From: a virus
Taxonomy: Duplodnaviria > Caudoviricetes
IMG/VR virus record: IMGVR_UViG_3300048592_000721
Coordinates: 1-59,644 of that record
Length of the DNA: 59,644 bases
Strand: one strand, 5' to 3'
Numbering within the stretch: position 1 is the first letter of the stretch; the number at the start of each line of letters is the position of its first letter. Of the stretch, positions 1 to 59,644 are shown piece after piece. Below the pieces are notes generated by a model, which had not been told where the DNA came from, made no database searches, and worked only from the letters and a program-made list of their open reading frames with translations. Made by a program: the position numbers and the translations under genes.

Positions 1-128
1 CCAACGGTTTGCGTTACCCGCGCTGGGGCGGGCGGCGGAACGCCGTCCGACTGGGAAAATGCTGAGGCGTAGAAAAAGGCTTGGAATCGCGCCAGAATCC
101 CCAGCGTCGGGTGCACGCTTTGTTGGGT
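1..128 (-). repeat. attC: integron attC site (cassette 1); also the 127-bp terminal direct repeat
   Basis: Minus strand R'' ACCCAAC lies 11 nt after the stop of ORF 140-811 and R' is GTTGG(CA). The plus (bottom) strand folds GCGT-TACCCG-CGCTGGGG / CCCCAGCG-T-CGGGTG-C-ACGC with two extrahelical bases. Positions 1-127 are identical to 59518-59644. Confidence 0.88.
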
Positions 129-139
129 GCGGTTTTGGA

Positions 140-811
140 TTAATGAGTAAATGCAGAAACGATAAGCAATAGTAAGGGAATTGCTTTATCCGAAACTTCA
201 ACATCGTTTGAGTCGTCGCCTCTCTTGCCGCCGTGAAAAAGATTATTTCTTACAGAATATAAAACATTGACGATTTGTTTTGTTAGGGCAGAGATTTCAT
301 CCTTGCTAACCTCTTTGCCTCCAATATATCGCTCGTATATTTCGGTGTCAATCGGACTCCAGACAGGATTGTCACTTGAAACTGTACGGGCAACAACTAA
401 AACCCCATTCAATTTTTGCCCACGAACATCTTTCTCGATTGGATTACCACGCCATTTTGGAGTTCGATAAACAAAAAACTTTGTACTTTCATGTTTTATT
501 AGTTGTTCTCGTAATTCATCACTAAATTCATCAACGGCATTATCTATTTGCTCTCGCTCTGAAACCAAATCAACCTTCGGGATTAAGAATTTTCCTTCAT
601 GTTTAGTTTCTACCTTTCCGTCAGGTAAATATCGTAACCGAGCCGCTTTGCCGTTGTAGTCAGAAACAACTTGATAGATATTGTTGAAGGCTATCCAAAG
701 ATAGGAATATTTTTCAAATGGGTCGTATTCTTTTTGACTTGATTTAATATTTTTTGCTGATCGAAGCATTGAATATGCTACTTTTGTTTCAAAGGGGGAA
801 AATTGAATCAT
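140..811 (-). CDS. cassette-borne HEPN-like (RxxxxH) putative RNase
   Basis: C-terminal RNNLFH motif and N-terminal YLWIAFN helix. ATG at 811 has an AAAGGA RBS. AT-rich. Confidence 0.6.
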   Translation of the reverse strand: MIQFSPFETKVAYSMLRSAKNIKSSQKEYDPFEKYSYLWIAFNNIYQVVSDYNGKAARLRYLPDGKVETKHEGKFLIPKVDLVSEREQIDNAVDEFSDELREQLIKHESTKFFVYRTPKWRGNPIEKDVRGQKLNGVLVVARTVSSDNPVWSPIDTEIYERYIGGKEVSKDEISALTKQIVNVLYSVRNNLFHGGKRGDDSNDVEVSDKAIPLLLLIVSAFTH

Positions 812-840
812 ATTGATAATTCCTTTGCTTACTGGCGAAG

Positions 841-872
841 CACCCAACTATGTATTTGGACGCCATATAACC
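841..872 (-). other. attI: attI-like primary recombination site
   Basis: Minus strand GCGTCCAAATACATAG|TTGGGTGC resembles attI1 (CGCCCTAAAACAAAG|TT). GTTGGGTGC is complementary to the R'' GCACCCAAC at the other end of cassette 1. No attC hairpin lies upstream. Confidence 0.6.
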
Positions 873-945
873 GCCGAATGACTTATCTGTCTCTTGGATT
901 CTAATGCCTAAATTAATTTAGGATTTTAGGCGGCGATAGATTAAT

Positions 946-1082
946 ATAAAAACCGCCACACGATTTGCGCAGGCGGTAGGATTTGTGCTATGATACTCCC
1001 TATCCGTTACGCGCCCAAATCGCGTAATTCAATTCCAAGCCTCACAGGATTGCAGTCCTGCGGGGCTGATTTTTTTATTATA
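946..1082. ncRNA. bidirectional sRNA/attenuator-like element, copy A
   Basis: Homologous to 17391-17534. Plus strand: TTGCGC..TG-TATGAT promoter, two hairpins, T-tract. Minus strand: TATAAT (1077-1082) and terminator ACCGCC/GGCGGT-TTTT. Confidence 0.6.
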
Positions 1083-1230
1083 GCCGGGAGGAGGGGGATT
1101 CGGAATAGTGTGAGGAATCACGCTTAAAGCGAGAAGCCTTGCAAACTGCAAGGCTTCAATCGTCAGTGCGTGAACTCTGGCTTCACGCTGCCGCTCGCGC
1201 GTCACTTGCCGCGAGCAAAAAATTAGTATG

Positions 1231-1301
1231 AGCGGGGAGCAGGGATCGAACCTGCGCCTACTCGTTGGAAACGAGTCGTCCTACCACTGGACGACCCCCG
1301 C
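1231..1301 (-). tRNA. tRNA-Gly (TCC)
   Basis: Cloverleaf GCGGGGG/TCCCCGC, anticodon arm ACTCG-TTTCCAA-CGAGT, T-arm GGTTCGATCCC. CCA is not encoded. Confidence 0.93.
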
Positions 1302-1351
1302 ATAAATCAATTATAGCACGGCTGTTCTGTTTTGGGTTTATAATTCCATGC

Positions 1352-9701: not shown

Positions 9702-10014
9702 AAGGATAAAGTGGCCGCAATTTAAGCATAAAGTGGCCGCATTTTAGCCTGCTGACAATGTGCAATTGAAAAAAACTGGAATAGATTTAAAGGATAAAAT
9801 GACCGCAAATTATTTTTTGAAACCATAATGTGGCCGAGAGTTTAGATTGGATTTTCTTAGTAAAAGGTTGTTTTTCGTATTGAACGTAGATATTGGCGTA
9901 TTTCGGATTTCTTGTTGAATAAAACCATACCATGTTGGGCGTCGTGCCAGTTTTTATAACTATGCTTTTAAAGGATAAAGTGGACTAAGCGGCCACTTTA
10001 TCCTTTTAGTTACA
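9693..10014. mobile_element. non-autonomous 322-bp transposon (MITE) with TGT...ACA ends
   Basis: Perfect 26-bp TIRs (TGTAACTAAAAGGATAAAGTGGCCGC) at 9693-9718 and 9989-10014. 5-bp TSD GCGTT at 9688-9692 and 10015-10019. Internal GGATAAAGTGGCCGC-like repeats. Confidence 0.9.
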
Positions 10015-10098
10015 GCGTTGTGAGGGCTTAAATAAAAATGCCCAAGTAGGACGAGGGGGGCGTCCAACAAGGGCAAGACGAATTATAGCAGAATTGCT

Positions 10099-10338
10099 TT
10101 ACAAGTCAAATTTGTTTTTTGCGTGTTTGATGATTTTAGAAAAAACAGGGATACTCATCACAAACACCAATATCCAAGTACCAACCCAGAAAGCAAAATC
10201 CGTCTCGTCGGGGTACTTTATTGTGAACATCCATATTGCACCAGTCACAATTGCGTCCCACAATTGCTTTGCCAAGCCTTCGCCAATTTGCATATTTACC
10301 TCTCTATTCTTTACGAATATGAGGGCAATTTGTTTCAC
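10099..10338 (-). CDS. small membrane protein
   Basis: ORF with two hydrophobic segments. Start uncertain. Confidence 0.35.
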   Translation of the reverse strand: MKQIALIFVKNREVNMQIGEGLAKQLWDAIVTGAIWMFTIKYPDETDFAFWVGTWILVFVMSIPVFSKIIKHAKNKFDL

Positions 10339-10365
10339 TCAAACTACAACCTTGGTAATTGACCG

Positions 10366-10410
10366 ACCATCTCATCAATAGCGGACTCCGTCTCGGACAT
10401 ATCCGCCCGC
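10366..10410 (-). pseudogene. relic duplicate of the RM enzyme C-terminus
   Basis: 39/45 nt match to 10753-10797. Encodes ADMSETESAIDEMV versus ADTSKEESAIDELV. Confidence 0.65.
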
Positions 10411-10446
10411 TGATACTCTACCTTTACCTTCGCGAGCATATCTAGT

Positions 10447-10695
10447 TTATAAGTAATCATCTGGGACTTTCCCTTCTTCAACTACAACAAATGCACCCAA
10501 CTCTTTTGTGTCATCCCCAATTACCCAAGTCACTTGGATAACCTTACCTTCCATTGCTGTGCTAGCAGTCGATGAATCGTCCAAAATAACTACATGATCT
10601 CCCACTCTAGGAATAGGTATCTTTTTATAGTCAAACCTAAAAGATTTTGTTCCATTTGCGTTAATGATGTCAAAGGAAGTTGTTTTTTTTGTCAT
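10447..10695 (-). CDS. hypothetical protein
   Basis: 82-aa ORF coupled to the RM gene stop. Confidence 0.6.
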   Translation of the reverse strand: MTKKTTSFDIINANGTKSFRFDYKKIPIPRVGDHVVILDDSSTASTAMEGKVIQVTWVIGDDTKELGAFVVVEEGKVPDDYL

Positions 10696-13600: not shown

Positions 13601-14159
13601 CCAATTGCGCCAGCGTCGGGTTCTTATCGGTATCTGCCATCATCGGCACGAACTGCTTCTGCGCCGTGTGACTCTTTTCATGACTCCCCACCAGGAATGA
13701 CCAGCGCCTCGCAGGTGTAAACTCATCTTTGACCTTGATCTGCCCCTCGTCATTCGCCTCCAGCTTAACCTCCAGCTTGACCAGCGAAAAACGCCAATCC
13801 TCCCCGTTGGGCGCTACAAAAGCCACCAGAGCGGCTTTCCTGTCTTTTCTGCTCAAATACTTCGCAATGAAATTTCTCTGCATGGTGCGGGCGCGGTCAA
13901 CCGACCCATCCCGCCTCAAATGGACGATCAACACATCGATCTCATCTTCGCCGTCCGAATACTTCGCCACCCGCTCGAACAGGCTCACATGCTTATCGAA
14001 GTCATCGAAAATCAAGTTACCCTTGTATGAAAAGGTCGCGGTCGCGCTAAAATCCGCCTCATTCAACAAAGACTTGATGAACTTGATATACCCAGCCTTA
14101 TCAAACTTCGACTGGAACGTATCCTTAATAAGATCGATTGCCCATTGATTTTTATTCAT
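10695..14159 (-). CDS. type IIG (Eco57I-like) restriction-modification enzyme with TaqI-C-like TRD
   Basis: LNGGLF, GVYYTP, DPAVGSGAF (motif I), ANPPY (motif IV) and C-terminal LALLNSKL/IDELVYELYGL. Confidence 0.88.
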   Translation of the reverse strand: MNKNQWAIDLIKDTFQSKFDKAGYIKFIKSLLNEADFSATATFSYKGNLIFDDFDKHVSLFERVAKYSDGEDEIDVLIVHLRRDGSVDRARTMQRNFIAKYLSRKDRKAALVAFVAPNGEDWRFSLVKLEVKLEANDEGQIKVKDEFTPARRWSFLVGSHEKSHTAQKQFVPMMADTDKNPTLAQLEEAFNIEKVTKEFFEKYRGLFIWTKDELDKTIDKNAKTKADFRSKDIDTVNLAKKLLGQIVFLYYLQKKGWFGVPTEAAWGDGSKNFLRELFEKKHGDYKNFFNDILEPLFYDALRMDRSHDDHYYRLFDCKIPFLNGGLFDPMNNYDWVKTEILLSNELFSNKNKTDEGDTGDGILDIFDRYNFTVKEDEPFEKEVAIDPELLGKAYEKFNAIRPDNYGEFLKALESGKKGEESKFNKQYGVYYTPREIVHYMCQQSLINYLHTELNPTAGFDTDEKSTRPTQPAELPTKEAIALLIQHGEDLREHEAQAANKETGTYSPIIAESIRKNAALIDEKLANIKVCDPAVGSGAFPVGMMSEIVRARNVLKTWSKIKKTVYDFKRECIENSLYGVDIDSGAVEIAKLRLWLSLVVDEDDPQNIKPLPNLDYKVVCGNSLVGVEKNLFNAHLFAKLESLKPLYFNVTNPTKKQEYKKKIDGLIEQITNGHAQFDFDIYFSEVFHDKNGFDILIANPPYVGHKGGQKEFFRRMKETSLGKRFNNERMDLFYYFFHKAIDLSGKNSTIIFITTNYYSTADSAVKLRTDFKSRVSISKLVNLGEITVFESATGQHNLITMLTKPQANSLCEIVSTNRTGTVTPDELHSILNKTDSQTNYSSVKQSDLYDGTQNYIRTSNSNGVDASNTTQNILQKMQVDYRDLGILCHISQGIVTGIDKISKKHFEKHPKLQITNGEGVYVIDSATAKRLDDKVIIKPWFKNSDIGKFYTSTRNTKWVIQVTTDTDLPKHKNVYKHLSRFESIIKSRNYESGELSKAKNLGKWWALSSARKEFDFTTPKIVAPQRSYANTFGYNEIPWYASADVYFITQKDTSVSLKYILALLNSKLYFLWLYNRGKRKGEMLELYQKPLSEIPVRRISDEKQKPFVKLVDQILAAKRGNPQADTSKEESAIDELVYELYGLSEEEVKIVEGKE

Positions 14160-14173
14160 AAAATTTTCCCTTG

Positions 14174-17100
14174 TTACTTCAAATACATACTCAAAATAAC
14201 TTCACGCTTCCCCGCTGACCTCGGGTTCTCGTCCACATAATGACTTCCCAACAGCCCTGCGGGGATCGTCATTCGCAGCAGTCCCAACACTTTCAGCGGA
14301 GATGTCCAATCTGAGTTATTGGCATTCAAAGCCTTAAGCGTGGCTTTAATGGTTTGTTTGGGTAAACCGCCCACTTTCAATTTCTCGATAATGGCTTGCA
14401 CAACGGCTTCCTGTTCCTCAGTTAATTGCTTGGTGTTTTTGAATACCGCCATAAGGATTCGCAAGACTTTCTCGTCACTGCCTCTGCCTTTGCGGGTTTG
14501 CAGTGTCATCGCTTCCTCGGTGGTCGCTGCAATGAAGGCATCCTTGTTCTTATCCAGCAGGTCGTAATACGCTTCCGAGACCTTTTCTCTCTTCTCGTCA
14601 GGCGTACACGCCAGCGTCTCCGCAGCTGCGATCAAATCAAGCTCCCATGCATCAAGATTATCGCCAGCGATAAAGAACTTCTGCACCTTCCCCTTGCGGA
14701 AATATGTAATTAGTGAATTTTGCAAGGATGGGTTGCTCTTGCCTGAACGCGCTTTTCTTGGCAGGTACTTAATCTTCTCGAACAAATCCTCATCGTTGTC
14801 GCGAATATCTTTAATGATTTTCAGGTACTTCAATTCGCTGGTTTCCGAACCATCTTCGCCAGTGATCGTTTTTTTGGAAATCAAACGGTCAAATAATTCA
14901 TGCGACCCAACAGGCTCTCCCTCGGTTAACAGCGCAGCGTCTCCGCCCAACAGCGAAAGGAAAGCGTTGATCTTTGCCTCTGCCGCTTCCTTGAGCCCGA
15001 TCTCGTTATTGGCTTGTGTAGTGGGAAAGAAGTTGAAGGTATAGATCGTGTCAAACTTCGTATCCACACGGTTGATACGTCCCACACGCTGCATCATGCG
15101 CGTCGGGTTCCACGGGATGTCGTAATTAATCACCACGTTGGAACGGTGCAGGTTCACGCCTTCCGAGAGAACTTCCGTGGCAACTAGAATGCGGTAATCA
15201 TTCCTCGGGTTCTTCGCCTTTGCATCGAAATTCTTGATGATGGTCTCGCGCACCCCTTCGCCTGACCCGCCCGAAAAACAAACTGCCTGATCTTTATGCG
15301 CCTTGTTGATATTCAGTGTCAGGTATTCCGCCGTCTCTTTTGATTCGGTGAACAGGATGATCTTGTTTTCCTTCAATAGCTTATTCTTTGAAAGCTGCTT
15401 CAACAGCGCCAATAGTTTGGGGTCGCGTTCCACGGTATCCCAAAGCTTTTTCACTTTCCTGAGAATGGCAAGGTCGCTCTTGAGGTAGGTCAGTAGTTCA
15501 GGGCGGAATTCACTGCTCTTGTACTTCTCCGCCTTGCCTTCTTCGATCAGGTGTTCCACTGCATCATCATTATCATTGTCGAGATATTCGAATATTTTAT
15601 AAGTATGCTTCTTGCTGGTGTAAACATTGCCCTTTTCAAACTCCCTGATGAATAGTTCATAAGAGTGAATGAACCTGCTAATGGAATTACGGAAGGCAAA
15701 GAAACTGCTTTCCAGCCGTTTGATGAGCAATATCTTCATGAACTTTCCCATGTTCCTTTGGGATTGTTCTTCCAGTTGGTCGAGCGGCTTTTTCAAATAC
15801 AGCAGGGGCGTGTAACGCGCATACTTGAATTCCTGTGAGAGCAATTCCATTGTCGCGTTGAAGACCTTGTCCTCTTCATCGTTCAATTCATAGTAAAGAG
15901 GCTCTGGCGCGGCAACATCTGGAAAGCGCAGTCCCTGTTTCTTCATGTCCTTGCCGAAGAAGTCAATAATCTCCGCGCGGGTACGGCGCACCATCAGGTA
16001 TTTCAAGACCTTTTCGCGAATTTCCTTTGAGTTTGAGCGTACCGTAGCGAGATAGTCTTCATAATCCGCCTGTCGATCCAGATCGGTCAGGTTCTTTGCC
16101 AGCCCCTTGAAGAAGTCTTCAATATCAGGCATATTGGGAATCGTGCTTTTCTTCGAGTTCTGGAAAAGCTTAATCTCGCTCAAAATGTCCCACGGTGAGT
16201 TGTTGTATGGTGTTGCAGTTACGAGAATAACGCGCTTGTTACGGCAAATTTCCGCCAGCATTTCATACGTGCGGTTGCCTTCATTGCGGAAGCGGTGCGC
16301 TTCATCAATGATGACGTTCTTGTATTTATCGGTGTCGCGTTCAAGCAAATCTTCCAGCTTACCGATGGATTCGAAATCCGCTGCAACTCTGAAATCAGAG
16401 AAAGCGTTCGGCCACGAACCAGGGTTATCTCTGTCCAAAAGCACAGGCGGCGCAATAACTAATGTCCTGCCATCCAACTGTCCAGCCAGCAACGTGGCAA
16501 TGTACGTCTTACCCAAACCTACCACATCAGAAATAAAGACACCGCCGTATTCTTCAACGATCTTCTTGGCGTTCAGAACTGCCTGTTCCTGATATTCAAG
16601 TCTCATGAAGTTTTCAGGCGTGTAATTGACAAATACCTCATCGGTCTGGTTTAGTTCGTCCTTGAAATATTCGTACAAGAGTTTCAAGTAAAGTTCGTAC
16701 GGGCTGATATCCTGACTAAGCCATGTTTTGGTTTCGATGGTTTCAATATATTTATCGCTGATGTCAACCGCGTCCAGCCATAGTTGCTCGAACTTATCAC
16801 GCGCGAATTTATGGTCTGCGGCATTCTTGAGTTCCACATTGAATTCAAGGTTTTCCACCAATCCAGATTGTGTCAGGTTGCTTGAACCAGTAATCACCCG
16901 CCCTGTATCTCTGTCACCTTCCTTGAAGGTCACAATATAAACCTTCGCGTGAATATTTTGCGAAGGATATACCTTTATTTCCAGTTTCCCGCTTTTGATC
17001 CATTCAATGAACTTTGCAACACCCAATTCAATGTTTTTGCTGTCCAGTGAATCTTCCAATTCCTTGGTCAGTTGATTAACAAATAAATCTTTGGCTTCCT

Positions 17101-17362
17101 TGCGGGATGGGTCAGCCAGTTCAAGCTGCTTTTCCACTTTTGCTGTTTGAAACAAATCAAAGGTACTTTTATCCGTGCTAATTCCCACCAGAATTCTGAT
17201 CTTCTCCGTGCCTTCAAGCGATTGATAAATGGCATAAAACCCGCTTGTGTAAAAATAACCCGACAATACATCGAAAAAACGGGCATCCCTGATAAGGACA
17301 TTGAATCTGTCCTTTAGGCTTTGTCCGTTCTCGTTCGTAATGAAAGTGAGATCTGTGGTCAT
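14174..17362 (-). CDS. PLD-domain nuclease fused to SNF2/DEAD-type helicase
   Basis: HAKVY...GSSN PLD motif, DVVGLGKT Walker A, DEAH, TATP and QRVGRINR. Confidence 0.88.
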   Translation of the reverse strand: MTTDLTFITNENGQSLKDRFNVLIRDARFFDVLSGYFYTSGFYAIYQSLEGTEKIRILVGISTDKSTFDLFQTAKVEKQLELADPSRKEAKDLFVNQLTKELEDSLDSKNIELGVAKFIEWIKSGKLEIKVYPSQNIHAKVYIVTFKEGDRDTGRVITGSSNLTQSGLVENLEFNVELKNAADHKFARDKFEQLWLDAVDISDKYIETIETKTWLSQDISPYELYLKLLYEYFKDELNQTDEVFVNYTPENFMRLEYQEQAVLNAKKIVEEYGGVFISDVVGLGKTYIATLLAGQLDGRTLVIAPPVLLDRDNPGSWPNAFSDFRVAADFESIGKLEDLLERDTDKYKNVIIDEAHRFRNEGNRTYEMLAEICRNKRVILVTATPYNNSPWDILSEIKLFQNSKKSTIPNMPDIEDFFKGLAKNLTDLDRQADYEDYLATVRSNSKEIREKVLKYLMVRRTRAEIIDFFGKDMKKQGLRFPDVAAPEPLYYELNDEEDKVFNATMELLSQEFKYARYTPLLYLKKPLDQLEEQSQRNMGKFMKILLIKRLESSFFAFRNSISRFIHSYELFIREFEKGNVYTSKKHTYKIFEYLDNDNDDAVEHLIEEGKAEKYKSSEFRPELLTYLKSDLAILRKVKKLWDTVERDPKLLALLKQLSKNKLLKENKIILFTESKETAEYLTLNINKAHKDQAVCFSGGSGEGVRETIIKNFDAKAKNPRNDYRILVATEVLSEGVNLHRSNVVINYDIPWNPTRMMQRVGRINRVDTKFDTIYTFNFFPTTQANNEIGLKEAAEAKINAFLSLLGGDAALLTEGEPVGSHELFDRLISKKTITGEDGSETSELKYLKIIKDIRDNDEDLFEKIKYLPRKARSGKSNPSLQNSLITYFRKGKVQKFFIAGDNLDAWELDLIAAAETLACTPDEKREKVSEAYYDLLDKNKDAFIAATTEEAMTLQTRKGRGSDEKVLRILMAVFKNTKQLTEEQEAVVQAIIEKLKVGGLPKQTIKATLKALNANNSDWTSPLKVLGLLRMTIPAGLLGSHYVDENPRSAGKREVILSMYLK

Positions 17363-17390
17363 TATCAACCTTTATTTTTTCTATAAACGC

Positions 17391-17534
17391 ATAAAAAAAC
17401 CGCCTGCACAATTTGCGGAGGCGGTAGGAATATGCTATCATCACCCTAACGACTGCGCGGCGGAATCGCGTAGTGCATTTCCAAGCCTTGTGAGATTGCC
17501 GTCTCATGAGGCTTTTTTATTTCGCGCAATTATA
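17391..17534. ncRNA. bidirectional sRNA/attenuator-like element, copy B
   Basis: Homologous to 946-1082 with compensatory stem changes. Directly upstream of the helicase-RM operon. Confidence 0.6.
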
Positions 17535-31844: not shown

Positions 31845-33404
31845 CTATACTTCCATCGTGCGACTGGCTGCCGACTTCGCTTTCGGCTCGGCTTCGAGCG
31901 GAGCGCCAGCGATGATCGCCTTGCCTTTTGCCCACTCGCGCAGGGCTTTGATATCCTCCTTCTTGGTTTCAGAGGTTGGGACAATTTGCTTCGCGGCTTC
32001 GAGCAGGTAGGTGACATCCAAAGGCTTCTCGTCGAAAAACGCGCGCTCAACTGCGAACTTTACAACCTTCTCGATCTCGCGTCCTGAAAAACCCCATGTG
32101 GCATTGACAACGCTAACCAGTTCTTTTGAATCTAATAAGTTCGCTTTGTCGCGTTTTATCAAATGGACGCCAATGATTTCTGCGCGGCTCTGCGCATCTG
32201 GCAGATCCACGAACATCACGTCATCGAAGCGACTGAGCAACTCAGGACGCAGGGCATTCACGCTGTTGGCAGTCGCGATCACATAGACGGGCGATGTAGT
32301 TTCTTGCATCCATGTCAGGAGGGAACCAATCACGCGCATCATTACGCCGCCATCGGATGCGCCGCCGTTGTCTGCCAGCGCCTTTTCGATTTCATCCAAC
32401 CACAGGACACAGGGAGCGGTAGCCTCGGCAACTTTCAACGCTGTGGAGATATTGTTCTCGGCGGCTCCCACGCGCCCGCTTCCCAAAATCTTGCTCATGT
32501 CGAAGCGGAGTAGCGGCAGGGTTCCACCTGCGATTGCCTTTGCGCTCAGGCTCTTACCTGTGCCTGGCACGCCGACTAGCAAAACGCCTTTGGGAGCATC
32601 CACGCCAGCGGCGCGGGCTTTAGGTGACATGGCGAGACGCTTCCGTGCGGCATACTGTTTGAGGTTGTCCAACCCGCCCACGTCGCTCATGCTGACATTT
32701 GCCTCGAAGTATTCCAGCACGCCGCTCTTGCGGATGATTTGTTTTTTCTCTGCGATGATATGGGAGATAACACCGTCGCCAAGTTCGCCACAGGCTACCA
32801 CGCCAGCGGTCAGGACGTTTTCGGCTTCTTCTTCGGTCAGTCCGCGCATCGCCTGAATGACCTGGTCACGGTTGCCATTCAGGGTGACGGGAGTCGTGCT
32901 TGGCAGGTTGGATTCGGCTTTGCTCAAAATGGCTTCGAGTTCTTTCACGTCTGGTAGTGACCAATCAATCACGGCAATCTGTTTTTCAAGGTCAGGGTGT
33001 ACGTTCAGCGACGGACTGAGCAAAATCAGGTTGTGTTTGCGGGTCTGAAAACGGGCGGAAATGTCGCGCAAAAATCTAACCACCCGCACGTCATTCTCAA
33101 TTAACTTGTGCAGGTCTTTGAAAACAAACAGCGTACTTGGCGCGTTCCCTTCCTCGTCGAAGTTTGCCACCCATCCAAGCGCGGCGTTGGGGTCGGTGTA
33201 TTCATCTGCGGCAAGGTCTTCCACGCCGACCAGTCCCTGCGTGATGGTCCACTCCACGACTTGGCGCGGGACTTTCTTCCCGCTGGTGAGTCGCATTTCC
33301 TTCGAGAGTTTCTCGATGGCTTGCATGACGCGGGACTCTTCATGAGAGACGACAGCAATCAATGCGTAGCGGGCTTTTATGTAGCGTTCAAGCGGTTCTT
33401 TCAT
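31845..33404 (-). CDS. Ycf46-like AAA+ ATPase
   Basis: Degenerate first domain (SHEESR, FKDLH), DVGGLDNLK, GVPGTGKS, WLDEIEK and RPELLSRFD. Confidence 0.88.
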   Translation of the reverse strand: MKEPLERYIKARYALIAVVSHEESRVMQAIEKLSKEMRLTSGKKVPRQVVEWTITQGLVGVEDLAADEYTDPNAALGWVANFDEEGNAPSTLFVFKDLHKLIENDVRVVRFLRDISARFQTRKHNLILLSPSLNVHPDLEKQIAVIDWSLPDVKELEAILSKAESNLPSTTPVTLNGNRDQVIQAMRGLTEEEAENVLTAGVVACGELGDGVISHIIAEKKQIIRKSGVLEYFEANVSMSDVGGLDNLKQYAARKRLAMSPKARAAGVDAPKGVLLVGVPGTGKSLSAKAIAGGTLPLLRFDMSKILGSGRVGAAENNISTALKVAEATAPCVLWLDEIEKALADNGGASDGGVMMRVIGSLLTWMQETTSPVYVIATANSVNALRPELLSRFDDVMFVDLPDAQSRAEIIGVHLIKRDKANLLDSKELVSVVNATWGFSGREIEKVVKFAVERAFFDEKPLDVTYLLEAAKQIVPTSETKKEDIKALREWAKGKAIIAGAPLEAEPKAKSAASRTMEV

Positions 33405-36930: not shown

Positions 36931-37232
36931 ACGCTTGGGGCGACCTGTGAGGTGTCTTTCTCTTTGAGTCTGGGTGTTATGTGTCTGACGCTTGGAAAAT
37001 CGCTTGTAGAGCATGATCTGAAAAAAAACTCTTGGGACTTCCTTAGACGAAAAAAAACATGCAGACACTTCATTCAGTGTGCTGCATGTGCTAGTTTCGG
37101 GCTTATCGGGGCTTGTGACGCGATTTTGGAATCAGGCTTCTTGGGACGCACGGAAATCAGGAATTTGGGTAACGATATGCAGAGTTGCAGAACGGGGTCT
37201 TAGAATCGCTTGTGACGCGCTTCGTGAAATTT
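36931..37232. repeat. composite non-coding repeat (three ~90-bp units)
   Basis: 37043-37232 is homologous to 57400-57590. 36931-36985 is homologous to 50516-50570. Confidence 0.8.
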
Positions 37233-48753: not shown

Positions 48754-48792
48754 GGTGCCCCAGCCAGGAGTCGAACCCGGAACCTACTGTTA
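48754..48792 (-). other. attP: attP core: 3' half of a tRNA gene
   Basis: Minus strand ...ACAGT-AGGTT-CCGGG-TTCGACT-CCTGG-CTGGGGC-A-CC, overlapping the integrase stop codon. Confidence 0.8.
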
Positions 48793-49653
48793 TGGGTTCA
48801 GCTTTTCAGTTTTTGGTAGGTTTGCTATGGGTAAATATTGCCGAATCGCGTCTTCGGTGATGTTTCGGGTGTAACGATCCACCATTTCCAGATTTGACCA
48901 ACGCCCTGCCACCATAAGAGTTTTAGACGGTGCGCCGAGCAAAGTAGAGATCGTGGCAAACGTGCGTCTGGCATCGTGTGGAGAGAATTCAAAGCCGACC
49001 TTCCTGCTCCATTTGCGGAATATCATTTTGATTCCGTGTCCAGTGAGAGGTTGTCCGTTGTTCCTGTTGTTTAGAAGATTCACAAAAAGAGTATCGACAC
49101 CTTTGGCAGGTTTGCGAAATTCCAACCACGATGCTATATAAAAAGCGGTCTGTTGTGAGTATGCTCCAGTCCCCCATTGCCCTCCCTTTACAACTACTTG
49201 AAGGTTAAGTTTTTCGAGGTTCACGTCATCGAGCTTAAGCCTTGCCAGTTCTGCGCGACGGAGTCCTGTGTCTATGGCTATGGCGAGAATTGCAAGGTCA
49301 CGTGATCCAATCGCAGTGGAAGTATCAAATGATGCAAGCAACTCGACCAGTTGATCCATAGTCAGGGCGCGCTGCTTTTTAGGGTGAACGCGCTTGATCC
49401 GAGCCGACAGCGCTGGATGGACTTGACCATATCTCCAAGAAATAAATGAGCGACAAGCGCAGAGGGCAACATATTGTTGCGTGTTCTGCTGAGGATTCCC
49501 TTTGATATTTGCTTTTACAAATGACAGTAGGTCGGATGCTGTCCAAGATGGAAGGTCTTCGACTACTAGTTTTTCCAAGGTGCGGCGATACGAAACCTTT
49601 GTGGATTCGCTGTATTCTCCCGATGCAAGAAAGTCTTCTACGAGTGTTCCCAT
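48790..49653 (-). CDS. int: tyrosine integrase
   Basis: TGLRRAEL (R), VKGG (K), HDARR (HxxR), GRW and RYT (Y). GAGGA RBS before MGTLV. Confidence 0.9.
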   Translation of the reverse strand: MGTLVEDFLASGEYSESTKVSYRRTLEKLVVEDLPSWTASDLLSFVKANIKGNPQQNTQQYVALCACRSFISWRYGQVHPALSARIKRVHPKKQRALTMDQLVELLASFDTSTAIGSRDLAILAIAIDTGLRRAELARLKLDDVNLEKLNLQVVVKGGQWGTGAYSQQTAFYIASWLEFRKPAKGVDTLFVNLLNNRNNGQPLTGHGIKMIFRKWSRKVGFEFSPHDARRTFATISTLLGAPSKTLMVAGRWSNLEMVDRYTRNITEDAIRQYLPIANLPKTEKLNP

Positions 49654-49666
49654 TTTGTCCTCTATG

Positions 49667-50482
49667 TTAGTGGTGTTGTTGTGTTCGCAGGGGATTTTCG
49701 TAGCCGACAGGCAGGTATTTTTGTAGGTCTTTCTTGACGTAATGCCTGACACCGAGAGATTGACATAGGTCAATCATCCTCAATGTGTAATCGCGCCAGT
49801 CCGTCGTTCTGGTGATGTCGAGATAATTCACGCGACCTATTTTATACAGGTCAACGAATTCGTGTGTAGATTTGACAATTTCCAAGCTGGCTTCAACGTT
49901 GATTGTCGGTTCGAGGGATACCCAAGTGAAAATCCCGTGCTCGTGGAACTTTTTCAGAGCGGCAATTCTATCACCTGGGAGCGCTGCTCCACGTTCCCAT
50001 TTTCGGGAGAAGTCGTCATCGAGACTGGTCAGCGTCGAGGCAAAGGCGTCGCGGTCGGGACGGAATAAATCAATATCGCGCAAGGCGCGGGTTCCGCCTT
50101 TGGTAAGGGTGCATACGCCAAGTCCATTTTCCTGCAGGACCTCAATTGCCCAACGCGTAAGAGAATTGTCGCCGGGGTGATACGGGTCCGTGGTAAACGA
50201 CAACATCACTTGTTCGGTGATTCCAGCCCGCTTGTATTTCAAAGCATCGAGAATCAATTTGCCAATAAAACCTTTGCGTGGGACAGCGCCAGCGTCGAAT
50301 TCTTTCCGCGTCATTGTTCCATGGAAAACACGCGGAACATAGCAGTATGCACACTTGTGCCCACAGCCTCTATATGGGTTTGCGGCGAGCGGAGCGTATT
50401 CGCCAGCCTGTCCTTGGGGGGCGTAAATATACTTACAGCCCTTGATTGAAATGCCATCGGGATTTACGGTAATTTTATCCAT
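49667..50482 (-). CDS. radical SAM protein (SPL-like)
   Basis: NPYRGCGHKCAYCY (CxxxCxxC), TTDPY and WVSLEP. Confidence 0.85.
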   Translation of the reverse strand: MDKITVNPDGISIKGCKYIYAPQGQAGEYAPLAANPYRGCGHKCAYCYVPRVFHGTMTRKEFDAGAVPRKGFIGKLILDALKYKRAGITEQVMLSFTTDPYHPGDNSLTRWAIEVLQENGLGVCTLTKGGTRALRDIDLFRPDRDAFASTLTSLDDDFSRKWERGAALPGDRIAALKKFHEHGIFTWVSLEPTINVEASLEIVKSTHEFVDLYKIGRVNYLDITRTTDWRDYTLRMIDLCQSLGVRHYVKKDLQKYLPVGYENPLRTQQHH

Positions 50483-56866: not shown

Positions 56867-57250
56867 TTAAAAGTCAAAGGCGAAGGTCTTTTTACCTTCG
56901 CCTTTGAACTCGGTGCGGAACCTTTGTTCCACCAGTTCGATGTTTGTGATTGTTGCTGGCTTTTTCCTTCTGTCGCAGAAAATGCGGAGCACTTCATCAA
57001 AATCCGCCTCTCCATTTTGTTCGTATCCAATCTCAACAATATCGGCGACATAGTCGGAGAGGTCAATAACTTCCTCTGCCTCGTATATCTTGAGGCTCAT
57101 TGTGTAGGTTCCGAGTGGCGCATGGAGTCTTTCGACCTCAACATCCTTGCCCTGGCTTTCTGCTTCGATCAAAACCTTTTCCATCCATTCAGGAACGATT
57201 GTTTGCAGGTCACGTACTTCCTGGGGCTTCATTACTTGCGTGGTGTTCAT
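56867..57250 (-). CDS. hypothetical early protein
   Basis: AGGAG RBS. First gene after a strong promoter. Confidence 0.65.
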   Translation of the reverse strand: MNTTQVMKPQEVRDLQTIVPEWMEKVLIEAESQGKDVEVERLHAPLGTYTMSLKIYEAEEVIDLSDYVADIVEIGYEQNGEADFDEVLRIFCDRRKKPATITNIELVEQRFRTEFKGEGKKTFAFDF

Positions 57251-57299
57251 AGTGTTCTCCTGTTTTTTGATTTGGTGTAATGTCGGTTACACAAAACAA

Positions 57300-57328
57300 A
57301 TCCTACATTCTGAACTTTTGACCGTCAA
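57300..57328 (-). promoter_or_regulatory. sigma70 early promoter
   Basis: TTGACG-17 bp-TAGGAT with TG extension. Confidence 0.7.
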
Positions 57329-57399
57329 GGGAAAATTCCAAGAAAAAACTTTTATAAACTTTTTTGCAATGAATTTGCAATGCGTCTCTTGGGGCGACT

Positions 57400-57590
57400 T
57401 TAGACGAAAAAAAACATGCAGCCACTTCATTTGTGGTGCTGCATGTGCTAGTTTTGGGCTTATCGGGGCTTGTGACGTTTTTTTGGAATCGTGATTCTTA
57501 GGACGCACGGAAATCAGGAATCTGAGTAACGATATGCTAAGTCACAGAACGGGGTCTTAGAATGGCTGGTGACGCGCTTTGTGAAATTTG
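57400..57590. repeat. second copy of ~190-bp non-coding repeat
   Basis: Clear homology to 37043-37232. Confidence 0.85.
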
Positions 57591-57593
57591 AAA

Positions 57594-57692
57594 CGGGCGT
57601 GGATTCTGCTTGGGAGCAGGAAAAATCCGAAGCCAGAAAAATGCTTGAAAATGCCGCCGAATCCCCAGCGTCGGATGCACGCTTTATTAGGC
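57594..57692 (-). repeat. attC: truncated/degenerate attC (cassette 3)
   Basis: R'' mutated to GCCTAAT. CCCCAGCG-T-CGGATG-C-ACGC arm present. Partner arm and R' missing. Confidence 0.7.
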
Positions 57693-57723
57693 GCGGTTTT
57701 ATGAAACTTTGACTCCATGCTTG

Positions 57724-58263
57724 TTAAAGTTTTACTTCTGATAAGTCATCCAACAATTTCTTTACTCGTACTCTTAATGATGGTTCAGGGTCATTATCTC
57801 TATAGGTGTCATTGAGCGTACAAATAGCCTTTATTTCGCCCAACCACACACCAAAACGATTAGGCGTTAACGGGTTAGTTGAAACGGCTGCTATATATTC
57901 AGCAATGAGACTATTAAGATAAACAGTTTGCTGTAAGTAATCATGCAGTTTTGATTGTATTTCTGGTTTAATAGAAAGTGATGATGTCGTCTCAAATAAA
58001 TGCCGTTCTACATTTGCTGTGCCAATGGGCGTTAAAGCCTTGTTTGGCAATTCCTTGCTGTCAATTCTGTCATGATTGTATCCGATGAGCCAAAGAGCAT
58101 GGAGGAGTTCTTGTTTTAATGCGTTTATCTGAGTCGTTTTCTCCCGCTTCTTATCGTTTTCTGCTTTTTGCCAATTCATGACTGAATTGAAAATAGCCGC
58201 TGAGAGACCGCCCGTAAGCGCACCCAACAACCACGGAAACCAAACAGGAAATGATTCAGGCAT
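57724..58263 (-). CDS. cassette 3 protein, N-terminal TM, unknown function
   Basis: ORF between attC sites with a GGAG RBS. Confidence 0.7.
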   Translation of the reverse strand: MPESFPVWFPWLLGALTGGLSAAIFNSVMNWQKAENDKKREKTTQINALKQELLHALWLIGYNHDRIDSKELPNKALTPIGTANVERHLFETTSSLSIKPEIQSKLHDYLQQTVYLNSLIAEYIAAVSTNPLTPNRFGVWLGEIKAICTLNDTYRDNDPEPSLRVRVKKLLDDLSEVKL

Positions 58264-58308
58264 AATTTTCTCCAGTCTAAAGGTTCAAAGTAATTTTTAT
58301 TTGAAAGC

Positions 58309-58438
58309 GCCTAACAGTTTGCGTTACCCGCGCTGGGGCGGACGGCGGAACGCCATCCAACTGGAAAAATGCTGAGGCGTAGAAAAAGGCTTGGAATCAC
58401 GCCAGAATCCCCAGCGTCGGGTGCACGCTTTGTTGGCA
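58309..58438 (-). repeat. attC: attC site (cassette 2)
   Basis: R'' TGCCAAC and R' GTTAGGC. Near-identical to 1-128. Confidence 0.9.
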
Positions 58439-58448
58439 CGCTCTAAGT

Positions 58449-58982
58449 TTACGGAGAACAACCTTTTGTATTGAAAAAACACAATATGTTTGGTTCTGAA
58501 TAAATTAAGCCAAGAGGAATTGACACAATTAATAAAAAGGTAATTAGACCAATTAGCCAATGAGATATTTTTATTGCCTTTTCTTTTACGATTGAACTTT
58601 TTTGTATTTCTTTAATGAATATTGAATGGTCTAGTATTGCTTGCATAAGAGCAAAGTTTTCAGAAGTATCATAATATTGTCTCTTGATTTCATCAAGGCT
58701 TGCACTAATTGGAAGTGAAAATTCACTGGGGGATAATCCTCTCAAGATTACTATAAAATTGATTATATAAAGAACTAGAACAATAGCAACAACTCCCCAA
58801 AAAATCATTCCTACCTTATCATATAAAGAAGATGCCATTACAGTTAAAGCGATTGAGATTATAATGCTTGAGTAATTCAATAAATTTTGTAGTTTCTCAT
58901 CACATAGGTTTGTAGCGTCATAAACCTTGTCAAATGCGAGGCGAAGACTTTCTAAAGCAATTTTTTTACTATTCTTTGTCAT
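58449..58982 (-). CDS. cassette 2 three-TM membrane protein
   Basis: Helix-TM-TM...TM topology loosely like Pycsar/SLATT-type effectors. AT-rich. Confidence 0.6.
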   Translation of the reverse strand: MTKNSKKIALESLRLAFDKVYDATNLCDEKLQNLLNYSSIIISIALTVMASSLYDKVGMIFWGVVAIVLVLYIINFIVILRGLSPSEFSLPISASLDEIKRQYYDTSENFALMQAILDHSIFIKEIQKSSIVKEKAIKISHWLIGLITFLLIVSIPLGLIYSEPNILCFFNTKGCSP

Positions 58983-59009
58983 ATATAAAAGTCCTTTGGA
59001 GGTAATAAA

Positions 59010-59174
59010 ATGTCAGATGAAGATAAAAAGAAAAGCGAAACCAAGAAAATAGAAGAAACAAAGAAAATAGATTTTTCAGTTCCGCCAGAAAAGCCAATAA
59101 TAAGAAGTAAAGACCCAGAACCAAAGCCAACAGAAACCCCAATAAAAGTTCATAAAAAAGATGATAGTGGGTAA
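59010..59174 (+). CDS. small Lys/Glu/Pro-rich protein in cassette 2
   Basis: GGAGGT RBS. MSDEDKKKSE...KKDDSG (54 aa). Confidence 0.45.
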   Translation: MSDEDKKKSETKKIEETKKIDFSVPPEKPIIRSKDPEPKPTETPIKVHKKDDSG

Positions 59175-59197
59175 ACAATAAAACAAGGAGAAATAAA

Positions 59198-59410
59198 ATG
59201 ACCGAATTAGATGAGTTTTTAGAAAAAAGCAAGAATGGTGGAATTGGAGTATACATCATGACTCCTTCAGGGCTTTTTAGCGGAAACGTAAAAGTCCATA
59301 ATACGGAAGTCTTGAGATTAGAACCTGCTTTTTTTCATACAAACAACGGAAACTCGAAAATAGAATTCCTAATCATATCTAAAGAAAGTGTTGTTGGATA
59401 TGGAAAATAA
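59198..59410 (+). CDS. small hypothetical protein in cassette 2
   Basis: AAGGAG RBS, followed by terminator 59459-59494. Confidence 0.55.
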   Translation: MTELDEFLEKSKNGGIGVYIMTPSGLFSGNVKVHNTEVLRLEPAFFHTNNGNSKIEFLIISKESVVGYGK

Positions 59411-59515
59411 GTATTTATCCTAAAATAAATTCTTGCTAAATAATTACTATGCTTTCCCAAAAGACAATCTGTTTTGGATTGTCTTTTTCTTTTTACGCTA
59501 ATTCTGCAAGGGGCG

Positions 59516-59644
59516 TGCCAACGGTTTGCGTTACCCGCGCTGGGGCGGGCGGCGGAACGCCGTCCGACTGGGAAAATGCTGAGGCGTAGAAAAAGGCTTG
59601 GAATCGCGCCAGAATCCCCAGCGTCGGGTGCACGCTTTGTTGGG
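59516..59644 (-). repeat. attC: attC copy at contig end (terminal overlap)
   Basis: 59518-59644 is identical to 1-127. R' GTTGGCA matches the R'' of cassette 2. Confidence 0.85.

What the first reader, a model, noticed from the sequence alone, without database searches (positions are those of the whole stretch)
57594..59644. Phage-borne integron cassette array without its own intI (continues through 1-872)
Seen: reading the minus strand across the junction gives an attI-like site (848), cassette 1 (5-847), attC, cassette 2 (58315-59521), attC, cassette 3 (ending 58314) and a broken attC. Each cassette's start is complementary to its own R'' (GTTGGGTGC/GCACCCAAC, GTTGGCACG/CGTGCCAAC, GTTAGGCGC/GCGCCTAAT). 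This is the signature of cassettes that existed as circles and were inserted by IntI. The bottom strand has two extrahelical bases. Established: integrons are mostly chromosomal, plasmid- or transposon-borne and rarely described in phages. Inference: the phage keeps a cassette-capture platform served in trans by the host IntI, sampling host cassettes as exchangeable defence morons.
Basis: partly seen in the sequence, partly recalled or inferred. Interest (0 to 1): 0.92.

Follow-up and report, generated by a model that had tools for sequence, protein, structure and literature searches.

The report
Integron cassette array inside a phage
A tailed phage that probably infects Anaerolineales bacteria carries three genuine integron gene cassettes but no integron integrase; this arrangement has been described in other phages, and here relatives of the phage show it to be a recent insertion.

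Summary
The minus strand carries an attI-like junction (G848|TT), cassette 1, a complete attC, cassette 2, a complete attC, cassette 3 and a truncated attC that does not fold. All three cassette starts are perfect complements of their own R''.

The attC belongs to a very conserved roughly 127-nt family. In Anaerolineales MAGs it forms arrays beside true integron integrases (4 of 5 genomes tested).

The window is a phage: it has terminase, head and tape-measure genes. It encodes a Xer-like integrase but no IntI.

One caveat was resolved. The record's 127-bp terminal repeat is the attC itself, so the circular assembly alone proves nothing. A close relative (L217) runs without a break from the homologue of 57587 to that of 1126, with no attC there. 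The array plus 274 nt upstream is therefore a 3.05-kb insertion in the phage backbone.

A second relative (G001) has its own 5-cassette array at another locus.

Seventy-two IMG/VR contigs carry attC-like sites matching a family-derived pattern. All 5 tested for IntI encode a true one.

First-cassette junctions in 13 phage arrays share an attI-like motif.

Phage CALINs are already published (Qi et al. 2023), so this is a new member of a known kind. Active capture in trans and a defence role are plausible but not shown.

The parts
849..1122 (-). Upstream part of the inserted module. It holds a leader with a terminator-like hairpin (1042->944) that is a paralogue of 17488->17391, which lies upstream of the helicase gene.
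   Evidence: It is absent from the empty site of L217. The duplication was aligned. A terminator-like site lies at 972->956 and a weak promoter-like site at 950->923, neither above chance.
841..880 (-). attI-like entry junction: ...AATACATA G848|TTGGGTGC. Non-attC sequence runs right up to the crossover G|TT.
   Evidence: Read. Of 13 first-cassette junctions in phage arrays, 9 read ATA|GTT and 7 read CATA|GTT. The host attI junctions read GTA|, CTA| and ATA|GTT.
5..847 (-). Cassette 1. Its ORF runs 811->140 (223 aa) and encodes a HEPN-like protein.
   Evidence: The start GTTGGGTGC is the complement of its own R'' GCACCCAAC. The RNNLFH motif is conserved in 39 homologues. The AlphaFold model has pLDDT 94. 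The top fold matches are HEPN proteins, Z 7.3.
1..130 (-). attC A, complete. Positions 1-127 are the same sequence as 59518-59644 (the terminal repeat).
   Evidence: Exact 127-bp repeat. Covariance model score 153 bits.
59518..59644 (-). attC B. In the circular reading this is attC A seen a second time at the other contig end.
   Evidence: Bottom-strand hairpin -35.8 kcal/mol, z -3.6.
58315..59521 (-). Cassette 2 (1207 nt). It has one ORF on the minus strand (58982->58449, 177 aa, membrane-like). It also has two small ORFs on the plus strand (59010-59174 and 59198-59410) with a terminator-like hairpin at 59459-59487.
   Evidence: The start GTTGGCACG is the complement of R'' CGTGCCAAC. ORFs. 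Terminator. The cassette is found at about 96% identity in 4 public runs of 3 studies without its neighbours.
58307..58440 (-). attC C, complete.
   Evidence: Covariance model score 152 bits. Fold z -2.7 on the bottom strand.
57695..58314 (-). Cassette 3. Its ORF runs 58263->57724 (179 aa) and has no family match.
   Evidence: The start GTTAGGCGC is the complement of R'' GCGCCTAA(T). No match in Pfam, NCBIfam, PADLOC or PHROGs.
57594..57694 (-). Truncated attC D. It keeps R'', L'' and the variable part but lacks L' and R', and it does not fold.
   Evidence: Covariance model score 55 bits. nhmmer aligns model positions 3-103 only. Fold z -0.5.
57386..57589 (+). Phage backbone element that abuts the insertion. 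It is a paralogue of 37029-37232.
   Evidence: Aligned. In L217 and G001 it lies next to the hairpin and tRNA-Gly.
1123..1301 (-). Phage backbone on the other side of the insertion: a hairpin (1123-1157) and tRNA-Gly(UCC) (1230-1301).
   Evidence: tRNA. Homology to L217 and G001.
48790..49773 (-). The phage's own tyrosine recombinase. It is Xer-like or a phage integrase, not IntI.
   Evidence: PF00589 87 bits. phrog_1 integrase. NCBIfam lists Xer-type models only, all below their cut-offs. TIGR02249 gives 0 matches at E<=10.

Best explanation
The window is a temperate tailed phage genome of about 59.5 kb. Its host is probably an Anaerolineales (Chloroflexota) bacterium.

Between a backbone element (ending at 57589) and the hairpin and tRNA-Gly (from 1123), the phage carries a 3.05-kb accessory module on the minus strand. 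The module holds:
- a phage-type leader/terminator region
- an attI-like junction
- three integron cassettes separated by two complete attC sites
- a decayed terminal attC

It is a CALIN (cluster of attC sites lacking an integrase) that keeps an attI-like entry site.

Each cassette was made by IntI-type recombination: its first bases after G|TT complement its own R'', which is the mark of a circular intermediate. The phage has no IntI. The enzyme must therefore come in trans, from the host's chromosomal integron or from a co-resident integron-bearing phage. Loading most likely took place at the attI-like site (attI x attC).

The module's outer edges are not IntI products. The module as a unit therefore arrived, or was trimmed, by ordinary phage mosaic recombination or by hairpin-driven deletion.

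Shown: the anatomy, the attC family membership, IntI in hosts, phage carriage, and the empty site in relatives.
Inferred: loading in trans, present activity, and any benefit of the cargo.
For: - Anatomy and repeat statistics.
- attC-type hairpin on the bottom strand.
- The family model matches the window copies. Its stem is 98.7% paired, with 5 compensated pairs and 0 of 500 shuffles as good.
- The same family was found in at least 120 genome loci. Of the 80 rows listed, 55 carry Chloroflexota-type names.
- IntI over the TIGR02249 cut-off in 4 of 5 such genomes. In G002 the order is intI, attI, then an array of this family.
- Cassette-circle signature: 9 of 9 in the host and 45 of 80 in viral loci, against 3.8% at random.
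- Phage genes.
- No IntI in the window.
- Empty site: L217 position 3776 matches window 57587 and L217 position 3791 matches window 1126. The two are 14 nt apart, with no attC. G001 agrees.
- G001 has its own internal 5-cassette array at another locus.
- The attI-like junction motif is shared by 13 phage arrays and resembles the host attIs.
- Part of the region upstream of the junction is a paralogue of a phage leader.
- Cassette 2 circulates alone in 4 runs of 3 studies.
Against: - The 127-bp terminal repeat equals the attC. It also equals a common assembler k-mer size (recalled, not from a call). The link from cassette 1 through attC to cassette 2 therefore rests on a repeat. Extra cassettes could be hidden there.
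- No read-level test was possible: no public run holds the phage. The best run held 0.14 of the sampled words, and when four runs were laid those words lay on the attC sites and cassette 2.
- Neither outer edge of the insertion is an IntI junction. D is cut inside the attC, and the other edge lies 274 nt upstream of the attI-like site. This fits en-bloc arrival as well as it fits loading in the phage.
- The attI-like motif is short. Its binding by an IntI is untested.
- Promoter-like and terminator-like sites near the array are not above chance.
- None of the window's three cassettes was found in the fetched host loci or in the viral loci.
Confidence: 0.62

Rival explanations
1. Static fossil. 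A ready-made piece of a host or phage cassette array, with its upstream region, was picked up once by illegitimate or homologous recombination, as any moron would be. It is now inert cargo. The phage does not act as a capture platform, and no cassette has been exchanged since.
For: - Both edges of the 3.05-kb insertion are non-IntI junctions.
- The terminal attC is truncated and does not fold. G001's last attC is truncated in the same way.
- No variant of this array with other cassettes was found.
Against: - The proximal junction is exactly at G|TT, with non-attC sequence upstream.
- That junction shares a motif with 12 other phage arrays sitting at different loci.
- Part of the upstream region is phage-type, not host-type.
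- Two attC sites are intact and fold well.
- Related phages differ in cassette content and in array position.
Confidence: 0.28
2. Assembly artefact or host origin. The contig is a repeat-bounded path through an assembly graph. The cassettes belong to a bacterial chromosomal array flanking an integrated prophage, or were joined to the phage chimerically.
For: - The terminal repeat is exactly the conserved attC core.
- Near-identical attC copies abound in metagenomes, with summed depth in the thousands.
- There is a published precedent: a Vibrio prophage bounded by attC direct repeats inside a chromosomal integron (Qi et al. 2023, section 3.1).
Against: - L217 joins the two phage flanks directly, and G001 agrees. 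The cassettes therefore interrupt one point of the phage backbone from both sides, in one orientation, in the canonical order: attI, cassettes, decayed end.
- The phage's own integrase lies 9 kb away, and the contig is continuous across it.
- G001 carries an array that is internal to its contig.
Confidence: 0.07
3. The repeats are not integron attC sites. They belong to another family of structured intergenic repeats (REP- or MITE-like) that only looks like attC.
For: The IntegronFinder model could not be run. The family is unusually uniform in sequence.
Against: - R''/R' core sites, L boxes and bulges are present.
- The complementarity is specific to each cassette.
- The unit size is one small ORF per repeat.
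- The arrays start at the attI next to a true IntI.
Confidence: 0.02

Closest known systems
CALINs (clusters of attC sites lacking an integron integrase) in phage genomes; Qi et al. 2023, Front Microbiol, PMC9892861. I read the abstract and sections 3, 3.1 and 3.4.
   Same: Co-oriented cassettes and attC sites inside phage genomes without intI. The cargo is mostly of unknown function. The paper proposes that phages both gain cassettes and spread them. One prophage CALIN there has its own attI.
   Different: - The host phylum here is Chloroflexota, by inference from the attC family.
- The attC sites here are near-identical to a very uniform chromosomal family.
- Empty-site relatives here define the insertion to within a few bases.
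- Their attC sites were tested with IntI1; these were not.
- I could not see their supplementary tables, so I cannot say whether any of their 17 phages is related to this one.
Chromosomal integrons and dispersed CALINs of Anaerolineales MAGs (for example G002: intI, attI and an array with at least 10 attC sites).
   Same: The same attC family at 91-95% identity. The same cassette-circle signature. A similar attI junction (TA|GTT).
   Different: They lie in bacterial chromosomes. In 4 of 5 genomes IntI is present, and in G002 it lies beside the array. The window's array is short, lacks IntI and sits in a phage.
Vibrio anguillarum prophage Va_90-11-286_p16 (Qi et al. 2023, section 3.1).
   Same: Phage and integron sequence are interleaved, with attC direct repeats at the ends of the 'phage' record.
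   Different: There the prophage sits inside a chromosomal integron and carries intIA. Here relatives show that the array is an insertion within the phage, and there is no IntI.
Off-site cassette insertion at attG sites (Loot et al., bioRxiv 10.1101/2022.09.11.507474). I read the search listing of the abstract and found passages.
   Same: IntI can place cassettes outside integrons at G|WT sites. The authors note that inserted cassettes can lose their attC by replication slippage ('domestication').
   Different: attG sites share only GWT. The phage junctions here share a longer, attI-like motif. No experiment was done here.
Phage morons and accessory-gene hotspots.
   Same: Low-GC cargo (31-39% against 50% for the backbone) on the strand opposite to its neighbours. 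It has its own leader and is present or absent between close relatives.
   Different: The cargo is modular, bounded by attC sites, and so could in principle be exchanged by a site-specific recombinase.

Membership tests
Integron attC recombination site | Inverse core sites: R'' (RYYYAAC) at the 5' end and R' (GTTRRRY) at the 3' end of the top strand. | tested here: met
   Copies A/B and C have them. 158 of 161 full-length family hits have AAC and GTT in register. D has AAT and no R'.
Integron attC recombination site | The bottom strand folds into a hairpin with an R box, an unpaired spacer, an L box, extrahelical bases and a variable terminal part. | tested here: met
   Predicted ssDNA folds give z -2.7 and -3.6 on the bottom strand, with a bulged T and a 1x2 loop on the 3' arm. 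The stem is 98.7% paired in 72 sequences, with 5 compensated pairs. This is prediction only.
Integron attC recombination site | Cassette signature: the bases after G|TT at a cassette's start complement the R'' of its own attC, not that of the attC upstream. | tested here: met
   Window 3 of 3. Host 9 of 9. Viral loci 45 of 80. Random pairs 189 of 5000. Same-site pairs are no better than random (means 3.14 and 3.16 of 6).
Integron attC recombination site | A match to IntegronFinder's attC covariance model. | not testable with these tools
   That model is not on hand. A model built here from the family matches, but that shows family membership only.
Integron attC recombination site | Recombined by an integron integrase. 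| not testable with these tools
   Indirect only: the family lies next to IntI in G002 and in 5 of 5 IMG/VR records tested.
Complete integron | An intI gene (TIGR02249-type) beside the array. | tested here: not met
   0 matches at E<=10 in the whole record. The only tyrosine recombinase is Xer-like and lies 9 kb away. tblastn with a host IntI gives noise only.
Complete integron | An attI site at the head of the array. | tested here: inconclusive
   The junction is at G|TT with non-attC sequence upstream. Its motif is shared with other phage arrays and with host attIs. No binding or recombination data exist.
CALIN (Cury et al. 2016 definition as used by Qi et al. 2023) | Two or more attC sites with no integron integrase nearby. 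| tested here: met
   There are two distinct complete attC sites (A=B, and C) plus a truncated one. No IntI lies anywhere in 59.6 kb.
Tailed phage genome | Hallmark genes: terminase, head and tail. | tested here: met
   Terminase large subunit, minor head protein, major head protein and tape measure protein are present, plus an integrase.
HEPN domain (cassette 1 protein) | A conserved Rx4-6H motif in a helical HEPN fold. | tested here: inconclusive
   The motif shows R188 in at least 90% of sequences and an invariant H193. The top structural matches are mostly HEPN proteins, but only at Z 7.3. Foldseek found nothing at E<=0.001. The protein itself has no Pfam hit. One homologue is named 'Apea-li...' by UniRef.

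The most novel reading that the evidence does not exclude
A whole group of phages, probably of Chloroflexota hosts, keeps attI-type docking sites (...TAAAYCATA|GTT) under phage leaders at several moron hotspots. These sites are served by an integron integrase encoded by the host or by a phage. Integron cassettes would then be a routine, exchangeable accessory genome of these phages, and the phages would be a main vehicle moving cassettes between Anaerolineales.
Probability: 0.33. Interest if true: 0.8.

Novelty: new member of a known kind. Interest (0 to 1): 0.55.

Why it matters
Integron cassettes need a way to travel between cells. Phages were added to the list of vehicles only recently, from a handful of isolate genomes. 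This case gives a clean natural example:
- a filled site and an empty site in close relatives
- a second array elsewhere in a cousin phage
- the same attC family beside true integrases in the likely hosts

It also hints that the link is common in one uncultured phage group: 72 IMG/VR contigs carry attC-like sites matching a family-derived pattern, and all 5 tested for IntI encode a true one.

There is a practical warning as well. A 'direct terminal repeat' in a viral catalogue can be an attC copy, so completeness calls based on it need a second line of evidence.

Tried and rejected
- Exact 27-mer of the attC in viral contigs: 0 hits. The window's own record may be left out, and relatives have diverged copies. 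A looser pattern then found 72 contigs.
- Read-level closure test: no public run holds the phage. The best run held 0.14 of the sampled words. I laid four runs. They cover the attC sites and cassette 2 only. The lack of cover on the backbone and on cassette 3 proves nothing about absence. The 'joints' listed between attC copies come from many organisms' attC sites, and I did not read them as cassette excision.
- Rfam: tRNAs only.
- Pfam, NCBIfam, PHROGs and PADLOC on the cassette proteins: nothing above weak hints. These were DzbB at E 0.0025, a 4TM effector at 0.012, PycTM at 0.07 and phrog_19013 at 0.0033. I do not call the cargo 'defence' on this basis.
- A profile of the cassette 1 family against PDB sequences: nothing.
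- Foldseek against PDB: nothing at E<=0.001.
- ESM Atlas: unnamed clusters only.
- Pfam over 39 homologues of cassette 1: MauJ in 9 and HEPN_RiboL-PSP in 1, all weak.
- Cassette proteins against the host loci fetched (no later loci): no hits. Against the viral loci: none.
- Similarity of 848-1235 to host integron upstream regions: only two short matches, in L139 and L097. I did not follow these up.
- Promoter and terminator scans: counts not above the shuffles.
- nhmmer was less sensitive than the covariance model (180 against 287 hits). Some 'imperfect' cassette pairs probably skip an undetected attC.
- Arrays dropped from the junction survey (16 arrays other than the window): L169 and L157, where no start was found and little upstream DNA was available; L213 and L206, where the first junction found was attC-type, so the array goes on upstream.
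- Literature searches found no paper on integron cassettes in Chloroflexota phages and no survey of attC in viral metagenome catalogues within the held library. Subscription papers and the supplements of Qi et al. were not visible.
Full report
**What is there**

I read the minus strand across the contig ends. The sequence runs as follows:
- non-attC DNA ending ...CATA, then G848|TT
- cassette 1 (847->5)
- a complete attC (130->1)
- cassette 2 (59521->58315)
- a complete attC (58440->58307)
- cassette 3 (58314->about 57695)
- a partial attC, D (57694->57594)

The first 127 bases of the window are identical to the last 127, and that repeat is the attC core itself. A 27-mer from the repeat occurs four times in the window, against none in 100 shuffles. 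Cargo GC is 31-39%, the repeats are 60-64% and the rest of the window is 50%.

For all three cassettes, the six bases after GTT are the exact complement of the six bases before AAC (AAT in D) of that cassette's own attC.

The complete copies fold on the plus (bottom) strand into the expected hairpin. It has an R box, an asymmetric unpaired spacer, an L box, a 1x2 internal loop and a bulged T on the 3' arm, with z -2.7 and -3.6. D does not fold (z -0.5).

**Are these really integron sites?**

Of the 80 rows listed, 55 carry Chloroflexota-type names: Anaerolineales, Anaerolineae, Chloroflexi, Villigracilis, Caldilinea and Litorilinea. Placing the last three in that phylum is from memory. A few rows are chance hits in unrelated GC-rich genomes.

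The copies are strikingly uniform, and many stand in arrays spaced by one small gene.

Five such genomes were searched with the integron-integrase model TIGR02249. Four have a match over the curated cut-off, at 353-452 bits against 265. None of 14 control genomes does.

In G002 the order is intI, a short attI region ending ...GCGTA|GTTGGGCTGC, then an array of this attC family with at least 10 sites out to the contig end. All five genomes also have many dispersed copies. G005, a complete chromosome, has arrays but no IntI over the cut-off.

A covariance model built from 72 family members (68 host copies, 2 from G002 and 2 from the phage G001; none from the window) scores the window copies at 153/153, 152 and 55 bits. 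Its stem is paired in 98.7% of cells, five pairs show compensated changes, and 0 of 500 shuffles do as well.

The cassette-circle signature was tested with nhmmer hits. It compares the start of a cassette with the R'' of the next attC downstream. It is perfect in 9 of 9 cassettes of G002 and in 45 of 80 pairs in viral loci, against 189 of 5000 random pairs. The R'' and R' of one and the same site match no better than random. This is the behaviour of integron cassettes and of nothing else I know.

**Is it in a phage?**

The window encodes a large terminase, a minor head protein, a major head protein, a tape measure, helicases, ParB and RadC-like proteins, and a phage-type tyrosine integrase at 48790-49773. 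That integrase matches only Xer-type models, all below their cut-offs, and not TIGR02249. A host IntI used as a tblastn query gives only noise in the window. So there is no IntI in the 59.6 kb.

**The closure problem and its answer**

IMG/VR calls the record complete because of its direct terminal repeat. That repeat is exactly the conserved attC core, 127 bp long, which is also a usual top k-mer size of metagenome assemblers (recalled). Near-identical attC copies are extremely abundant in metagenomes. A repeat-bounded path through an assembly graph would look just like this. Qi et al. also describe a Vibrio prophage bounded by attC repeats inside a chromosomal integron.

Reads could not settle the matter.

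Relatives did settle it. A metagenome contig, L217, is 79-93% identical at the nucleotide level. It is continuous from the ParB and RadC region, through the homologue of window 57248-57587, into the homologue of window 1126-2076 (hairpin, tRNA-Gly, methylase-like gene). Only 14 nt lie between the two flanks, and there is no attC hit.

The IMG/VR relative G001 is about 76% identical and syntenic over window 1228-48789. It begins with the same element, followed by a hairpin and tRNA-Gly.

So the two ends of the window are neighbours in this phage lineage. The window carries a 3,052-nt insertion there, running from 57588 through the array to 1122, with the repeat counted once. What remains open is only whether more cassettes hide between cassette 1 and cassette 2.

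**What the insertion looks like**

Its distal edge is inside an attC. D follows a known variant of the family up to ...CACGCCCG and then runs into the phage element.

Its proximal edge lies 274 nt upstream of the attI-like junction. Within those 274 nt, 1042->944 is a paralogue of 17488->17391.

So the DNA in front of the array is partly phage-type, not integron-type. Neither outer edge was made by IntI. The inner junctions (848 and the two attC sites) are IntI-type.

**Relatives with other arrays**

G001 has its own array of five small cassettes on the minus strand at about 9650-11650. It is internal to the contig, between the minor-head gene and the homologue of window 17551. This is the very hotspot that in the window holds the two large genes. 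Four of its attC sites match the model, though two of them were in the training set. Its last attC is cut after L'', like D.

A gapped pattern for the family found 72 IMG/VR contigs. About three chance hits would be expected by my rough estimate. The model gives 287 matches over the window, G001 and these loci. Thirty-eight of the 72 loci have two or more nhmmer hits.

Nineteen of the 72 loci have tblastn matches (E<=1e-5) to one or more of 55 window proteins. These include minor-head, portal-like and tail proteins, and the arrays sit at different places.

A host IntI finds full-length homologues (44-53% identity) in six loci, and partial or weak ones in five more. Five records were tested with TIGR02249, and all five pass the cut-off at 396-428 bits. 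CheckV estimates them 94-100% complete, and two have terminal repeats. I did not check whether those repeats are attC copies.

**The entry site**

For 16 arrays other than the window I searched upstream of the first detected attC for GTT plus the complement of its R''. Twelve gave a start preceded by non-attC sequence. Two gave an attC-type junction, so those arrays continue upstream. Two gave nothing.

With the window, that makes 13 junctions. Nine read ATA|GTT (seven of them CATA|GTT, the window included), two read TGA|GTT, one reads GTA|GTT and one reads ATT|GTT. Several share ...CCGTATAAA(Y)CATA|GTT, with an inverted partner a few bases upstream.

Three host attI junctions read GTA|, CTA| and ATA|GTT. 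The G004 site (...GCTGTATAAACCCTA|GTT) resembles the phage motif. Internal attC junctions read CC|GTT.

This is more than the bare GWT of attG sites, and it points to an attI-type docking site. The first cassettes behind it are unrelated to each other.

**Cargo**

The cassette 1 protein (223 aa) belongs to a wide family of proteins of about 222 aa, most of them on short contigs. One homologue is named 'Apea-li...' by UniRef. R188 (in at least 90% of sequences) and the invariant H193 form an Rx4H motif.

The model is confident (pLDDT 94.4). Most of its best structural matches are HEPN proteins, toxins and Csm6, but at a modest Z of 7.3.

Cassette 2 holds a membrane-like ORF of 177 aa. It also holds two small ORFs on the opposite strand with their own terminator-like hairpin. 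Cassette 3 encodes a protein of 179 aa with no match.

Cassette 2, bounded by attC pieces, is present at about 96% identity in four public runs of three studies (wastewater, activated sludge, digester). Neither cassette 3 nor the phage backbone accompanies it there. It therefore travels as a unit.

**Reading**

The best account is a phage-borne CALIN with a retained attI-like entry site. It was built by IntI recombination supplied in trans, sits under a phage leader, and has a decayed distal attC (0.62).

The main rival is a one-off en-bloc pickup that is now inert (0.28). Host origin or chimera (0.07) and 'not attC' (0.02) are unlikely.

**Novelty**

Qi et al. 2023 (abstract and sections 3, 3.1 and 3.4 read) screened 10,705 phage genomes. 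They found 3 complete integrons, one In0 and 17 CALINs, and showed that IntI1 recombines five of six phage attC sites. The kind is therefore known, and the window is a new member.

What may be new is the scale and regularity of the link in one uncultured phage group, together with the shared docking motif. My four searches found nothing on this in the held library. The supplements were closed.

Noticed in passing
L131 (G001) 9650-11650, minus strand: The related phage G001 carries its own 5-cassette array with diverged attC sites and a truncated last attC. It sits at a different hotspot, between the minor-head gene and the homologue of window 17551. Its entry junction is ...CAGTA|GTTAGGCGTGC.
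   Followed up: partly
L145-L216 (72 IMG/VR contigs): attC-like sites matching a family-derived pattern occur in 72 viral-catalogue contigs, and 38 of them have two or more nhmmer hits. Five records were tested (G007-G011, 94-100% complete by CheckV) and all five encode an IntI over the TIGR02249 cut-off. In L179 and L200 the intI gene is co-oriented with the array, and in L179 its 3' end lies just before the attI.
   Followed up: partly
window 1-127 and 59518-59644: The 'direct terminal repeat' on which the record's completeness call rests is an attC copy of exactly 127 bp. Terminal repeats of other catalogue records that carry arrays may be the same kind of repeat.
   Followed up: partly
window 57386-57589 and 37029-37232: A duplicated intergenic element of about 204 nt (about 88% identical), containing a terminator-like hairpin. 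Copies also occur in G001 (1-68 and 32538-32741) and in L217 (3417-3776, with part repeated at 1776-1913).
   Followed up: partly
window 944-1042 and 17391-17488, minus strand: A duplicated leader with a terminator-like hairpin stands in front of both accessory loci: the cassette array, and the helicase plus 1154-aa gene pair. It may act as a shared attenuator.
   Followed up: partly
window 58416-59535: Cassette 2 occurs at about 96% identity in four public metagenome runs of three studies (wastewater, activated sludge, anaerobic digester), without cassette 3 or the phage backbone.
   Followed up: partly
G005 (complete chromosome behind L023 and L033): This genome has several arrays of this attC family (for example 401-412 kb) but no IntI over the cut-off. 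It has only two Xer-like genes near 2.06 Mb, and a short match to window 949-1030 lies near them (L139).
   Followed up: no
window 10695-17368, minus strand: Two very large genes (1154 aa, and a 1064-aa helicase-like protein, phrog_26785) fill the hotspot that holds the cassette array in G001. They may form a defence or counter-defence module.
   Followed up: no
L217 2830-3417 against window 56905-57248: Between the RadC region and the element, the close relative L217 has about 590 nt unrelated to the window. This is another small variable spot next to the insertion site.
   Followed up: no
listing: The same attC family appears in MAGs labelled Chlorobiaceae, Ignavibacterium, Gammaproteobacteria, Desulfobulbus, Draconibacterium and others. 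This could reflect binning errors on short array contigs or real spread across phyla.
   Followed up: no
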